A DNA stretch of 64,000 nt from Methanotrichaceae archaeon (lineage in GTDB: Archaea > Halobacteriota > Methanosarcinia > Methanotrichales > Methanotrichaceae): NCBI GenBank assembly GCA_963813075.1, contig CAWEXU010000007.1, positions 46,683-110,682 on the forward strand, given 5' to 3'. The notes below the pieces were generated by a model. That model was given only the letters and a program-made list of their open reading frames with translations, did not search any database and was not told where the DNA came from. The first letter of the stretch is position 1; every line of letters starts with the position of its first letter. The translations under genes were made by a program, and so were the position numbers. This document shows, one piece after another, positions 7,469 through 64,000 of this stretch.

Positions 7469-8770
7469 CTATAGGGAGCGCGGCGGCCTGGCTCTGGATT
7501 GCAGCGATTGGGTCAGGTTCGCCAGCCTGGCAGAACTGCTCATTTCCTCCCTCAATCCCAACTTGACCAGCCAGACATCTTCCGCTCCGGATCCGTATGA
7601 TGCGGTTATCCCTGCCAGGATATAGTCTCCCTCCCGGTTCTGAATGACAAAGCTGCCGATATCGTCTTTCATCCCGCCGAGGACACTTCTCCACTCCTCC
7701 TGTCCGGCGGAGTTCGTCTTTATGATCAGGCCATCCCTTCCCGATTCATCTTTATCGATTCTTCCGCCGATGACAAAGCCGCCATCGATTGTCTGCTGCA
7801 AAGAGGTGCCTGAGCTTCCAAGATATGATCTCTCCCAGATCTTCCGGCCACGCAGGTCCACCCGGATGAGAATGATCCTCTCCTCTTCCAAACCGGACTC
7901 GGACCTGCCCACCAGGGCATAGCCGTCAGCAAGCTCCACCACCTGAAAGGCGGTGTCATCCCGATCTCCTCCGTAGGTGGCATTCCAGGTCATGATGCCC
8001 TGGCCATCGGTCTTCAATAGCCAGATATCGTCACCTCTCGTGCCCTGTGATGCCGTCCTGCCGGCGACGATAAATCCACCCTCCCGGCTCTGAATGACGG
8101 ATAATCCCACATCATCCTCTGTGCCGCCGTAGCTTCTCTCCCAGAGGAGGTCTCCAGTATCATCGGTGCGAATGAGCCAGAGGTCTTTTCTGCCGTTTCC
8201 TTTAGATTGAGTGTAGCCGGTGGCGATATATCCTCCATCATCGGCCTCATCCACTGACCAGCCACCGTCGCCTGAGGAGTGTACAAATCCGCCAAAGGTA
8301 TTATCCCAGATCAGGCTTCCATTCCCATCCATCTTCACCAGCCACAGCCTCTCCTCGCCCATGCCAAAGGAGTTTGTGCTCCCGGTGATGATGTAGCCGC
8401 CATTGCTCGTCTCCCGGACAAAATAGCCCACATCCTCGCCCGATCCACCCAGGATCCTGCTCCAGAGGGAGTTTCCGTCCAGATCGGTCCTTATCAGCCA
8501 CAGGTCGCTCTTCTCCCCTCTGGTTGCGGTATTGCCTACCAGGATGTAGCCGCCTTCACCGGTCTCCTGCACAGACCAGGCACCATCGCCATACTTTCCT
8601 CCATAGGTCCTGTTCCATTCCTCTTCTACTTCTCCGCCATAAAGAGATGCTGAGACCGGAGAGATATGATATAGAGAGATGAGGGTGAGGAGGAGAATGG
8701 AAGAAAGGATGAGAACGAATAAACAGGAGATATGCAGGAATGGGGGATTTAGGGGATAATGGATTTTATC
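7469..8770 (-). CDS. Secreted repeat protein, beta-propeller-like (start uncertain)
   Basis: About seven repeats of Q...GG.I..G.T....DLWLI.TD..G...W...GG; the frame extends upstream of 8572 into a hydrophobic signal-like stretch. Confidence 0.7.
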   Translation of the reverse strand, partial: DKIHYPLNPPFLHISCLFVLILSSILLLTLISLYHISPVSASLYGGEVEEEWNRTYGGKYGDGAWSVQETGEGGYILVGNTATRGEKSDLWLIRTDLDGNSLWSRILGGSGEDVGYFVRETSNGGYIITGSTNSFGMGEERLWLVKMDGNGSLIWDNTFGGFVHSSGDGGWSVDEADDGGYIATGYTQSKGNGRKDLWLIRTDDTGDLLWERSYGGTEDDVGLSVIQSREGGFIVAGRTASQGTRGDDIWLLKTDGQGIMTWNATYGGDRDDTAFQVVELADGYALVGRSESGLEEERIILIRVDLRGRKIWERSYLGSSGTSLQQTIDGGFVIGGRIDKDESGRDGLIIKTNSAGQEEWRSVLGGMKDDIGSFVIQNREGDYILAGITASYGSGAEDVWLVKLGLREEMSSSARLANLTQSLQSRARPPRSL

Positions 8771-8782
8771 ATTGATTCCTTC

Positions 8783-9447
8783 CTAGATCCCTCTATCCTG
8801 GAATTTCACTGACTTTTCCATAGAGAAGCTCCCGCTAAGAAATGTGCTGGAGTCAATGTCATTTTTGCCCATCTGATGCTGGGAGGAGGTGATTGCATAG
8901 TGGCCCAGGAACTTGGAATTGCTGCTGGATCCTATCCCTTGCTGTCCGGTTGAATCATCCAGGCCGGAGTTGATGGCTTCAAGGCAGGAGGATGTCTCGG
9001 CGGAAGCAATAGTGGCAGGTCCATTGGCTCGCTGATGAGTTGATGGATGTGTTAGTAGCGGAGGAGTTGATGGCTGATGTATTGGCTGCAGATAAATTGG
9101 CTGCGGATGAGTTAATGGAAGTGTTATCGTTGGACTGGCTAATGCCGGACAATCCCGGATCATATGGGTTTGATCTTTTCGAACTGGAGGGGATAGAACC
9201 GCTATAGCCTGCCTTTCCTCCACCGGCCGAACCGCTCTGGGAGAGCATATCATTCAAGGCCCCGTTAATCCTCTCCTCCAGCCTCTTCGTGTCTGCGCTC
9301 ATGATCGATAATCTGGAGTGTCTTATCTTCCGGAAGGCCGTTCTGGCCGGCTTCATTCTGGCAAACAGAAGACAATGCCGGAAAGATAAGTGCCATTATC
9401 AAGATGATCAAGACTGCAATCTCCGCTTTCATTATCCCCACCATCAC
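8783..9447 (-). CDS. Hypothetical secreted protein with Asn/Ser/Ala-rich repeats (frameshifted)
   Basis: Signal peptide in 9265..9447, NTSINSSA repeats in 8979..9356, C-terminus in 8783..9253. Confidence 0.55.
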
Positions 9448-58397: not shown

Positions 58398-58535
58398 GCC
58401 TGGCGAATTCTGCCTCTGTATAATTTTATATTCACAATCCAAAACCATCGAAGGCTCATTCCGATCTCTCTTGCTTTGAGGGGGCCCCTTTGCCTGCGTC
58501 CAGGAGGGCCGACTCGCGGCGTGCACAAAAAAAAC
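58398..58535 (+). repeat. GC-rich structured repeat element, copy B
   Basis: Imperfect direct repeat of 58652-58790; shares ACCATCGA.GGCTC, TTGAGGGG and GGCCGACTCGCGG with the 61.3 kb copy. Confidence 0.8.
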
Positions 58536-58651: not shown

Positions 58652-58790
58652 GCCTGGCGAATTTTCCCTTTAATATATCTCAATGCAAAAACCATCAACG
58701 CGCAATTCTGATCTTTCTGGCTTTGAGGGGCCCTCGTTGCCTGCATCCCGGAGGGCCGACTTGCGGCGTCCCGGAAAGTGAGAAAACTGT
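58652..58790 (+). repeat. GC-rich structured repeat element, copy C
   Basis: GCCTGGCGAATT...AAAACCATC...CTTTGAGGGG...GGAGGGCCGACTTGCGGCGT. Confidence 0.8.
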
Positions 58791-61281: not shown

Positions 61282-61389
61282 TTTTTTTTACGGGACACCG
61301 CGAGTCGGCCTGCTGGCCTCCCGCGCAAGCCCGGGTCCCCTCAACGCCGGGGAGGCTTGGATACAAACGTGGCGAGCCGTCGATGGTCT
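61282..61389 (-). repeat. GC-rich structured repeat element, copy D
   Basis: Reverse complement reads ACCATCGACGGCTC...TTGTATCCAAGCCTCCCCGGCGTTGAGGGG...GGCCGACTCGCGGTGTCCCGTAAAAAAAA. Confidence 0.8.
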
Positions 61390-61747
61390 TAGAAACAACA
61401 ATACGAATATTATTTTTATGTAGAATGAAAAAGCAGCACGAGATTGTGTAAGGAGAGATTGTCCAGTAGTTTTATAATTGAGATAGTATTTACCAGGCGG
61501 GCTGGGGCCACTTCTTCTCAGAAATGGATAGGATAACGGTGTTCGAAACATGGACCTAGCGGCAACGAGTGTTTCAATGGGGCCACTTCTTCTCAGAAAT
61601 GGATAGATCGAAGAGAACCCGAACCTGAGCAAGTTACAGGGTTTCAATGGGGCCACTTCTTCTCAGAAATGGATACCAAATGAGTCCGGGTTGAATTTTC
61701 GCGGAGTTTCCCATGGAAAACCAAAAAAATCAAATACAAGAGACGAG

Positions 61748-63067
61748 TTATCCACCTCCATCAGATGACCTTTTCCGGTCGGGCTTATTCACAGAAATAT
61801 CTTCAAGCACTCGCATGAGGGCCTTCTTCCGGTTACTTTCGCTCATTCCATAAAAGGCATCCACAATTGCAGCTACCTTATCCGTCAGATGCTCCACCTT
61901 CAAAGAAGGTTCATGGCAGGACTCATTTCGACCCGTTCTCCTCTTTCTGCAACCAACCTCTTGGTAGAACTCCTGGTTGATCAGAAGATGATAAATGAGA
62001 CAGATGAGCTTCCTGGCCACGGCAACTATTGCCACATTATGCTCCTTCTTTTTGCTCAGCCTCTTGTAGAATCTGGACAGCGTTGTATTTTTCATATTAG
62101 CTATGGTCTGGGCAGCCTCGACAAGTACAACTCGGATATACTTGGAACCGCGTTTTGTGATTCCGCATTTCCTCTTTTTGCCGGCAGATTCATTTTCACC
62201 GGGATTGAGGCCACACCATTTCGCCAGTTGGTCAGGGGTCTGAAAATCTCTGTAGTCTCCGATCTCTGACAGAATGACTGAACCTGAGATAAATGCGATT
62301 CCAGGGATGGACATAACAATAGCCAAATCCGTGCTCTTCTTTTGAATCTTTTTCAGAACCTCAAAACTTGTCTTCTCTATTTTGGATTCGACATTGTCCA
62401 TGATTTCGAGAGCATCCCTTATCAGCATTCTATTTGTATCACTCAGTTCATTGGCAAGTGCTGATCTGATCTCGTCTTGTTTTTTCCTGATCTTTCCGCA
62501 GGGTATGCCTTTTAGGATCTCTTCGGTAGGGTTGTCTTCAGCCAGACCTCTTATGATATGATTTCCAGATTTGCAGAATATATCGTCCATAGAAGAGCTG
62601 AGTTTAACGCCATTTGATGAGAGATATTTGTGTATCCGATTCTTGAACTGAGTTCGCGTCTTGACATATCCTGCTCTGGCTCGCGTTAGGTTCCTGAGTT
62701 CTCGGTCTTCATCGCAAAAAACCCGAGATCTCTTGATTTGATTATTCAAACACAGAGTTGCAATATGCTTTGAATCTTTTGAATCTGATTTGTCATTTGG
62801 AATGGACTTTATCTGCAGAGGATTGGCAACAATGGTATCTATGGTTCGGCTCAGAGCATCATAAATCGGGATCCAATAGACTCCAGTAGCTTCGAATGCA
62901 ACCTGTTCGCATTTGTTAGCTGCAAGCCAGCTTCTAAATCTATCAAGTTCGGATTTTGTTGTCCCAAAATTCTCTCGAATCGGCGGCACTTCGTCGCCTG
63001 CTATTGTGGCAACGATCAGATCTTTATGGACATCTGCACCGCAAACTCTTTCTCTTCGCTTTTTCAT
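61748..63067 (-). CDS. IS110-family transposase/recombinase
   Basis: DEDD RuvC-like motifs GADVHK, FEATGVYW and KSDSKDS; SIPGI and GLNPGENESAG (catalytic Ser region). Likely start is MKKRRERV at 63067. Confidence 0.95.
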   Translation of the reverse strand: MKKRRERVCGADVHKDLIVATIAGDEVPPIRENFGTTKSELDRFRSWLAANKCEQVAFEATGVYWIPIYDALSRTIDTIVANPLQIKSIPNDKSDSKDSKHIATLCLNNQIKRSRVFCDEDRELRNLTRARAGYVKTRTQFKNRIHKYLSSNGVKLSSSMDDIFCKSGNHIIRGLAEDNPTEEILKGIPCGKIRKKQDEIRSALANELSDTNRMLIRDALEIMDNVESKIEKTSFEVLKKIQKKSTDLAIVMSIPGIAFISGSVILSEIGDYRDFQTPDQLAKWCGLNPGENESAGKKRKCGITKRGSKYIRVVLVEAAQTIANMKNTTLSRFYKRLSKKKEHNVAIVAVARKLICLIYHLLINQEFYQEVGCRKRRTGRNESCHEPSLKVEHLTDKVAAIVDAFYGMSESNRKKALMRVLEDISVNKPDRKRSSDGGG

Positions 63068-63079
63068 ATATGTCTCTGC

Positions 63080-63226
63080 CTGATATGGGCAGATGATCAT
63101 TCCCTTATTGGGGATAATTTCCCATACGCGTTCTAAGACGCAGTCCCGTATTCGAGGGGTATTGGCTGGTTTCAATCGCGGGATCAAGTGTCCCATAAAC
63201 TTGTCAGCCTTCACTGCCCATATCAG
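63080..63226 (-). ncRNA. Candidate IS110 bridge/guide RNA
   Basis: 13-bp perfect closing stem (63080-63092 / 63214-63226); contains ATTGAAAC (63169-63176, equal to the repeat end) then ATGGGAAA (63118-63125, equal to the IS far end); TATA-like TTTTAAT at 63242-63248. Confidence 0.6.
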
Positions 63227-64000
63227 ACTTAACATGGACGGATTAAAATATCTGGTTTTCCATCCGTCACGTGTGAGCCCCTGCCTGGGCTCATGGGCGT
63301 TTCAATGGGGCCACTTCTTCTCAGAAATGGATAGTACTGTTCTGTGGATTTCGGAGATGGAGCCCACGGTGTTTCAATGGGGCCACTTCTTCTCAGAAAT
63401 GGATAGCGAGCTTCTCCATAAGAATTCGGCAAAGCTGCCGAAACTGTTTCAATGGGGCCACTTCTTCTCAGAAATGGATAGATCGTGGGACCTCTGGAAA
63501 GCGCCCGGTTCATGAACGAGTTTCAATGGGGCCACTTCTTCTCAGAAATGGATAGGAAAAGATGGCATTGGCATCCCCGGCAAGGACGGGAAAGTTTCAA
63601 TGGGGCCACTTCTTCTCAGAAATGGATAGGGCCGATTGAGCCGGGAACTTATAATGCGATTATGTGGTTTCAATGGGGCCACTTCTTCTCAGAAATGGAT
63701 AGAATTAAAAAGGAGGTAAGATTAATGGAAGAATTAAGCGAGTTTCAATGGGGCCACTTCTTCTCAGAAATGGATAGAGAGGCCATGAGGAAGTATATAG
63801 CAGTAGTAAGTGAAAACGTTTCAATGGGGCCACTTCTTCTCAGAAATGGATAGTGGAGCGTACGTATGCGGGCGTTCCGGATTTGCTGCTAGGTTTCAAT
63901 GGGGCCACTTCTTCTCAGAAATGGATAGGGAATTAGGGGAGATTGTGACTGCAATCGCTAATCGAAAGTTTCAATGGGGCCACTTCTTCTCAGAAATGGA

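What the first reader, a model, noticed from the sequence alone, without database searches (positions are those of the whole stretch)
61641..63334. IS110 inserted precisely at the conserved end of a CRISPR repeat
Seen (minus strand): the left junction is ...GGCCCCATT-GAAAC-GCCCATGAG and the right junction is ...TTTTCCATGG-GAAAC-TCCGCG. The same GAAAC core flanks both sides (+ strand GTTTC at 63299-63303 and 61706-61710). Removing 61711-63298 plus one core restores repeat-spacer-repeat with a 29-30 nt spacer, which is short for this array, and the adjacent repeat also lacks its terminal base. Established: IS110 elements integrate by conservative recombination at a short core shared by donor and target. 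Inference: the element targets the ATTGAAAC repeat end, a multicopy and widely conserved site, and leaves the repeat intact. Alternative: the ends lie near the 11-bp inverted repeats, but that leaves about 60 nt unexplained.
Basis: partly seen in the sequence, partly recalled or inferred. Interest (0 to 1): 0.85.

Follow-up and report, generated by a model that had tools for sequence, protein, structure and literature searches.

The report
RNA-guided transposon landing in CRISPR arrays
A small jumping gene of methane-making archaea carries a guide RNA that spells the last eight letters shared by several kinds of CRISPR repeat, so most of its copies sit in the host's CRISPR arrays, and the RNA appears to read the element's own left end in an unusual way.

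Summary
Observation confirmed. The element is an intact IS110-family insertion sequence (1,593 bp, 439-aa recombinase) of a Methanothrix-type archaeon; its three copies in this genome all follow a CRISPR repeat's 3' ATTGAAAC. Across 19 guide families, guide and flank change together (69 of 76 letters; shuffles 23.7). The crossover core is AA, not GAAAC. Of 122 distinct left flanks, 77 are CRISPR repeats of four families and 41 ordinary sites. Arrays hold roughly 57-83% of all ATTGAAAC sites, so preference beyond the motif is not shown. The guide is invariant in a 34-protein clade while siblings switch guides. A fourth RNA segment matches an internal left-end site about 25 nt from the core, not the canonical right donor. 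Thermus IS1000 also sits inside CRISPR repeats. Nine paper searches found no report of CRISPR-targeting IS110s; the scan had noted other repeat-targeting IS110s, none at CRISPR. No activity was tested. New variant of a known kind.

The parts
61708..63300 (-). IS110-family element counted with one AA core (1,593 bp); same orientation as the array
61748..63067 (-). Recombinase ORF, 439 aa; D12/E59/D95/D98 and S294. The upstream ATG at 63235 lies in the non-coding end and is probably not the start
   Evidence: Pfam PF01548 + PF02371; NF033542 255 bits over cut-off 140; alignment to IS621; motif positions; relatives start at the same place
63080..63227 (-). Predicted bridge-type RNA, closed by a 13-bp stem (63214-63227 with 63080-63092)
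   Evidence: fold z = -4.35 for the left end; 24 consensus pairs, 8 with compensatory changes, 34 sequences; depth about 4,900 against 24-143 in the ORF in 1 of 2 RNA runs, contigs only
63197..63205 (-). Target loop, 5' strand (GACAAGUUU): complement of core plus right flank; only AA-AC is obeyed in this clade
63169..63179 (-). Target loop, 3' strand: ATTGAAAC at 63169-63176 (4 target letters, AA core, 2 handshake-like letters)
   Evidence: covariation with left flank, 69 of 76 against 23.7 shuffled
63143..63151 (-). Fourth guide-like segment (AUACGGGAC), matching the internal left-end site by identity
   Evidence: 89 of 108 against 63.3 shuffled; canonical right donor 12 of 96 against 11.7; 10 of 13 further loci
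63117..63125 (-). Donor guide AUGGGAA(AU), matching the right end of the element
   Evidence: 37 of 39 against 26.2 shuffled
63266..63274 (-). Internal left-end site matched by the fourth segment
63273..63294 (.). DNA hairpin (inverted repeat) between the core and the internal site
   Evidence: DNA fold on both strands; inverted arms seen by eye in siblings
63253..63263 (-). Left sub-terminal inverted repeat, 11 bp
61713..61723 (+). Right sub-terminal inverted repeat, 11 bp, 3 nt from the core
63299..63334 (-). Intact CRISPR repeat whose 3' ATTGAAAC (63299-63306) is the reconstituted target; the array continues to the contig end
   Evidence: same repeat family lies beside cas4g/cas1g at the start of this contig
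61677..61705 (-). 29-nt spacer, now cut off from its upstream repeat
   Evidence: no other copy in 58 genus genomes or in the viral contigs
61499..61676 (-). Trailer end of the array: two repeats and a degenerate terminal repeat

Best explanation
An active IS110-family bridge recombinase element. Its left end makes a ~148-nt RNA. The target loop pairs with ATTG-AA-AC; the recombinase crosses over at the AA core and inserts the element with no duplication, always in the array's direction. Donor and target share AC after the core, so the upstream repeat is rebuilt exactly. Because nothing beyond AC is read, any spacer may follow. The motif equals the 3' eight letters of at least four host repeat families (the crRNA 5' handle; recalled knowledge), so arrays supply most perfect sites and collect about two thirds of the copies. 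Shown from sequence: boundaries, core, motif, guide-flank covariation, empty orthologous sites. Inferred: RNA-DNA pairing and chemistry (by analogy with IS621); selection keeping the guide on the handle (about 60%); a donor loop that holds the right end with one guide and an internal left-end site with the other, both on the same DNA strand (about 70% that the segment is a guide; its role is open).
For: Three copies here, each after a repeat end. 77 array and 41 non-array left flanks share the motif. Guide covariation on three canonical segments, none of 20,000 shuffles reaching the observed values. Copies inserted into the guide of another copy, as the motif predicts (L178, L037). Joined flanks align without a gap to empty orthologous sites for 3 of 13 loci tried. 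An end-to-end junction in a contig of two exact 1,596-bp units. Catalytic residues intact. Guide shared by 561 of 561 clade pairs at 70% or more protein identity, against 31 of 66 sibling pairs. High depth over the RNA in run X15.
Against: No biochemical test. Shuffles ignore relatedness, and the clade pairs are not independent. Run X17 shows no excess over the RNA region, and all runs were contigs. The canonical second donor guide is absent. The array share of insertions (76% of exact-motif flanks) fits availability at 0.78 (p = 0.63) but exceeds it at 0.66 (p = 0.035) and 0.57 (p = 7e-5), so neither a preference nor its absence is settled. No empty allele of this very site was found. Short-read contigs can join flanks wrongly through a repeated element.
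Confidence: 0.87

Rival explanations
1. The match to CRISPR repeats is a coincidence: RNA-guided targeting is right, but the guide was not selected for arrays; arrays merely hold many copies of the motif.
For: Nearly all sibling guides end in AA-AC or similar by scaffold, so few free letters are needed. Array share of insertions is near availability. In G001 only 2 of 6 copies are in arrays.
Against: Guide invariant over 34 proteins down to 76% identity while flanking guide letters and sibling guides change. The read length stops exactly at the repeat end. An unrelated IS110 lineage in Thermus also has a guide matching a CRISPR repeat.
Confidence: 0.35
2. Arrays are favoured beyond the 8-mer, through repeat structure, transcription or Cas proteins.
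For: 3 of 3 copies here; excess over availability if arrays hold only 57-66% of sites; near-cognate sites outside arrays are far more numerous.
Against: Four unrelated repeat families and 41 ordinary sites are used; 3 of 3 has probability 0.52 from availability alone; selection against gene insertions would give the same excess.
Confidence: 0.15
3. The fourth RNA segment is not a DNA guide but a duplicated protein-binding or structural motif, and the left end is recognised by protein.
For: Identity to the top strand at a site 25 nt from the core fits no pairing scheme in the passages read; this element itself has 2 mismatches in 9.
Against: It changes in step with the DNA site across 12 classes and in 10 of 13 further loci, mostly from other families; it sits where a 5' guide sits, just before an inner hairpin.
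Confidence: 0.25
4. The element ends at the 11-bp inverted repeats, or the junction is an assembly artefact.
For: The assembly shows indel noise and shares four spacers between the two ends of this contig.
Against: The same boundaries recur in many genomes and metagenomes.
Confidence: 0.01

Closest known systems
IS621 of E. coli and its bridge RNA (PMC11208160, PMC11208158; passages read)
   Same: DEDD plus serine recombinase; RNA in the long left end; two-armed target loop; 2-nt core; handshake-like letters (17 of 19 families match); aimed at a host repeat
   Different: Only weak protein similarity (34 bits); target arms in reverse order; 11-bp inverted repeats; multi-loop donor part; second donor guide displaced to an internal site; effective target 8 nt
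IS1111-group elements such as ISEc11, ISPa11, IS4321 (PMC11187229, passages and section 6; PMC11208160, passages)
   Same: Sub-terminal inverted repeats in the 7-17 bp range; top-strand complement precedes bottom-strand match; donor letters in a multi-loop
   Different: Non-coding region upstream; left repeat 36 nt from the core; 439 aa against 330-350 aa; IS4321 matches only residues 251-379 at 61 bits
IS1000 of Thermus thermophilus HB8 (NC_006462; PMC6352166, passages read)
   Same: IS110 family; both copies found on pTT27 lie in CRISPR repeats and the left end holds a 7-nt complement of the repeat
   Different: Splits the repeat after its fourth letter at a CA core; IS621-like donor guide. 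The paper read the match as recruitment of IS ends into CRISPR, not as targeting
CRISPR-associated transposons (recalled)
   Same: RNA-guided insertion linked to CRISPR
   Different: No Cas or Tns genes in the element; the array is the target, not the source of the guide

Membership tests
IS110 family (bridge recombinases) | DEDD RuvC-like domain plus PF02371 domain | tested here: met
IS110 family (bridge recombinases) | Catalytic D, E, D, D and serine | tested here: met
   D12, E59, D95, D98, S294; E, D, D and S align with IS621, positions
IS110 family (bridge recombinases) | Insertion at a short shared core without target duplication | tested here: met
   (3 of 13 loci had an empty orthologous site, all gap-free)
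IS110 family (bridge recombinases) | Non-coding RNA with a loop matching both halves of the target | tested here: met
   covariation
IS110 family (bridge recombinases) | Circular intermediate with joined ends | tested here: inconclusive
   one contig of two exact units with the junction; circle or tandem dimer; no such joint in 4 runs laid
IS110 family (bridge recombinases) | RNA bound by the recombinase and needed for movement | not testable with these tools
   needs experiment
IS621-type bridge RNA | Donor loop pairing with both donor halves next to the core, on opposite strands | tested here: not met
   right-end guide present; canonical left-end guide absent, 12 of 96 against 11.7 shuffled
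IS621-type bridge RNA | Bottom-strand match 5' of top-strand match | tested here: not met
   order reversed relative to the recombinase gene
IS110 group (narrow) | Long non-coding region upstream of the gene | tested here: met
   231 nt upstream, 37 nt downstream
IS110 group (narrow) | Sub-terminal repeats absent or short | tested here: not met
   11-bp perfect repeats
IS1111 group | Sub-terminal inverted repeats of 7-17 bp | tested here: met
IS1111 group | Long non-coding region downstream | tested here: not met
IS1111 group | Transposase related to IS1111 over its full length | tested here: inconclusive
   IS4321 matches only the C-terminal part; no tree with ISfinder references was built
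CRISPR-associated transposon | Cas effector and Tns genes inside the element | tested here: not met
   one gene of known family only

The most novel reading that the evidence does not exclude
IS110 elements have repeatedly evolved guides aimed at CRISPR repeats. This lineage mimics the 8-nt crRNA handle, so it homes into arrays of several Cas types as a safe harbour, silences the next spacer and can splice arrays of different repeat families together. Its whole methanogen subfamily uses a donor loop that grips both element ends on one DNA strand, across a hairpin, as suited to a single-stranded circle or to target-independent excision.
Probability: 0.4. Interest if true: 0.86.

Novelty: new variant of a known kind. 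Interest (0 to 1): 0.72.

Why it matters
It gives a natural RNA-guided parasite of CRISPR arrays with over a hundred mapped sites, and a testable route by which arrays are broken, silenced locally or fused. It supplies an archaeal bridge-RNA family with many natural guide swaps and a donor segment that does not fit the IS621 scheme, which bears on the open question of how IS110 ends are recognised during excision. It also suggests that the Thermus IS1000-CRISPR match in print reflects insertion into the repeat rather than recruitment.

Tried and rejected
Empty allele of this site: the spacer occurs in 1 of 59 genus genomes (this one) and in no viral contig; no joint skipping the element in 4 runs, all contigs. 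No copy in viral contigs or phage records. Rfam: one chance match below threshold. Canonical right-donor guide and reverse-complement reading of the fourth segment: no signal. Guide letters -7 to -5: no signal, 16 of 57 against 14.4. Mismatch types did not tell the RNA strand. Short spacer as an insertion scar: rejected. One search used an out-of-frame protein query; its hits were used only as a lead and redone with DNA anchors. The tree is the quick tree; the careful search did not finish. No structure or complex was predicted. Group placement (IS110 against IS1111) was left open. In one search, 7 loci were dropped because the script found no left repeat.

Full report
Observation. The window ends in a CRISPR array of 36-nt repeats that read CTATCC...ATTGAAAC on the minus strand, with a degenerate trailer repeat at 61499-61531. 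Between the repeats at 61641-61676 and 63299-63334 lie 1,622 nt in place of a 33-42 nt spacer. The insert encodes an IS110 recombinase of 439 aa from 63067, with the catalytic residues in place. Related loci are titled Methanothrix or Methanotrichaceae. The same repeat family lies beside a cas4g/cas1g gene at the start of this contig.

Boundaries. The genome holds three full copies, each directly after a repeat's 3' end and each followed by a different spacer. A DNA search of 59 genus genomes found matches in 49. All 30 left and 32 right ends listed keep the boundaries. The G varies on the left and the C on the right, which puts the crossover in the AAA; siblings fix the core as AA. For 3 of 13 insertions tried, the joined flanks align without a gap to an empty orthologous site in this genome. 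One metagenome contig is two exact 1,596-bp units with the end-to-end junction, either a circle or a tandem dimer.

Target. Genomes and one metagenome scan (115 stretches) gave 122 distinct left flanks. After three manual moves, 77 are CRISPR repeats, 41 are other sites and 4 were set aside: one insertion into another copy's guide, one end-to-end junction, two too short. The repeats fall into four families by their last 17 letters (30, 25, 15 and 7 sites). Of the 41 other sites 24 end in ATTGAAAC and 17 are near matches. The set includes short relic ends, and distinct flanks need not all be independent events. On the right, the first two letters after the core are AC in 22 of 22 array and A in 24, C in 18 of 26 other flanks; letters 3-7 match the guide 1.4-1.5 times in 5, about chance. 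Arrays hold 92 of 119 ATTGAAAC sites here and roughly 57-83% in five other genomes, judged against a reversed-pattern control. The array share of exact-motif insertions, 77 of 101, fits the upper values and exceeds the lower ones. A preference beyond the motif is therefore not shown, nor excluded.

Guide RNA. The left end folds far better than shuffles (z = -4.35). An alignment of 34 relatives keeps a 13-bp closing stem and inner hairpins, with compensatory changes in 8 of 24 pairs. The target loop has GACAAGUUU on its 5' strand and GCG-AUUG-AA-AC on its 3' strand. In siblings these become, for example, CCCT, GCGG, CACA, AGTG or TATA, and the flanks follow. With one element per guide family: left guide 69 of 76 letters (shuffled 23.7; n = 19), right guide 67 of 91 (47.0; n = 13, best offset), donor guide 37 of 39 (26.2; n = 13); none of 20,000 shuffles reached these values, though shuffles ignore kinship. 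In RNA run X15 the depth over 63094-63247 is about 4,900 against 24-143 in the gene; in X17 there is no excess; two DNA runs are flat; all are contigs, so this is a hint only. Contigs ending at 63220-63227 in letters I recall as a sequencing adapter agree with the stem's 5' edge.

Guide conservation. Among 58 recombinases, the 34 with ATTGAAAC form one supported clade at 76-100% identity. All 561 pairs at 70% identity or more share the guide, against 31 of 66 sibling pairs (quick tree; pairs not independent; the clade was gathered by whole-element and left-end DNA, not by the guide). Their right arm is obeyed less than in siblings (mean 4.0 against 5.5 of 7), which suits a variable spacer, though some siblings are as loose. 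This favours, without proving, selection for the repeat end.

Unusual donor reading. No RNA segment complements the DNA next to the core at the left end (12 of 96, shuffled 11.7). A 9-nt segment placed like a 5' guide instead equals a site just before the left inverted repeat, about 25 nt from the core and behind a DNA hairpin (89 of 108, shuffled 63.3; 12 classes). An RNA model found relatives in 11 of 150 phylum genomes. In 13 further loci, 10 show an exact 6-9 nt match at this place, two show one mismatch by eye and one none; some are near-duplicates. Both donor segments would pair with the same strand. My best reading (inference) is a donor loop that holds both ends on one strand, which would fit the single-stranded circles and donor-only excision reported for other IS110s (10.1101/2025.10.25.684509, first fifth read; 10.64898/2026.08.31.748434, abstract).

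Effect on the array (inference from established Cas6 processing). The upstream repeat is whole, so upstream crRNAs are spared. The next spacer loses its repeat and should give no crRNA. Later spacers depend on read-through. In G046 a copy joins a 31-repeat array of one family to end repeats of another, as recombination between two copies would give; assembly error is not excluded.

Comparison. It works like IS621 (PMC11208160, PMC11208158; passages). It is an IS110-family member but fits neither group: upstream RNA as in IS110; 11-bp repeats and guide order as in IS1111 (PMC11187229; passages and section 6). On Thermus pTT27 both IS110-family copies found lie inside CRISPR repeats and the left end carries a 7-nt complement; PMC6352166 (passages) saw the shared 32 bp and read it as recruitment. 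Searches gave no paper describing an IS110 aimed at CRISPR repeats; the library lacks most subscription papers, ISfinder was not available, and no supplements were read, where this element may be listed. Also seen: PMC13626964 (abstract), 10.64898/2026.10.21.760802 (passages and section 2.4; it removed RNA residues overlapping 25-nt donor windows and reports no displaced guide in what I read), 10.1101/2025.05.14.653916 (passages). The scan's notes list other repeat-targeting IS110s, none at CRISPR.

Verdict. Real, well supported and mechanistically explained at the level of sequence. New variant of a known kind; interest 0.72.

Noticed in passing
L280:~950-2150 and L281 (NC_006462, about 134-135 kb and 145 kb): Both Thermus IS1000-type copies interrupt a CRISPR repeat at a CA core; the left end holds matches to the repeat and to both donor halves.
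   Followed up: partly
L277:4082-8245 (G046): A copy sits between a 31-repeat array of one family and terminal repeats of another: a hybrid array. Mixed flanks also in metagenome loci L171, L193, L219, L234, where mis-assembly is likely.
   Followed up: partly
L178; L037 (G043): Copies inserted into the ATTGAAAC guide of another copy; in L037 the duplicated first 125 nt are missing.
   Followed up: partly
G000 C7:1-330 against window 63335-63590: The two ends of this contig share four spacers with small indels; strain mixture or assembly overlap.
   Followed up: no
G000 C31:103291-103350 and C13:45180-45238; L053, L057, L059, L064: Relic left ends of about 45-60 nt without the gene, some at CRISPR repeats; possibly non-autonomous derivatives.
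   Followed up: no
G000 C8:~7900-9400: A sibling element (42% protein identity) with guide and target CACA-AA-GTCACAG; close kin occur in six copies in G001.
   Followed up: partly
window 63238-63263: An AT-rich stretch just behind the left inverted repeat, 20-30 nt before the RNA's predicted start, could be an archaeal promoter (by eye; not tested).
   Followed up: no
window 61748-61945: The recombinase has a C-terminal tail of about 65 aa beyond the family models; function unknown.
   Followed up: no
window 58441-58522, 58688-58769, 61283-61310: Dispersed copies of a short intergenic repeat, in both orientations.
   Followed up: no
G000 C10:~96550-96620: Two repeats abut with no spacer at the trailer end beside the third copy.
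   Followed up: no
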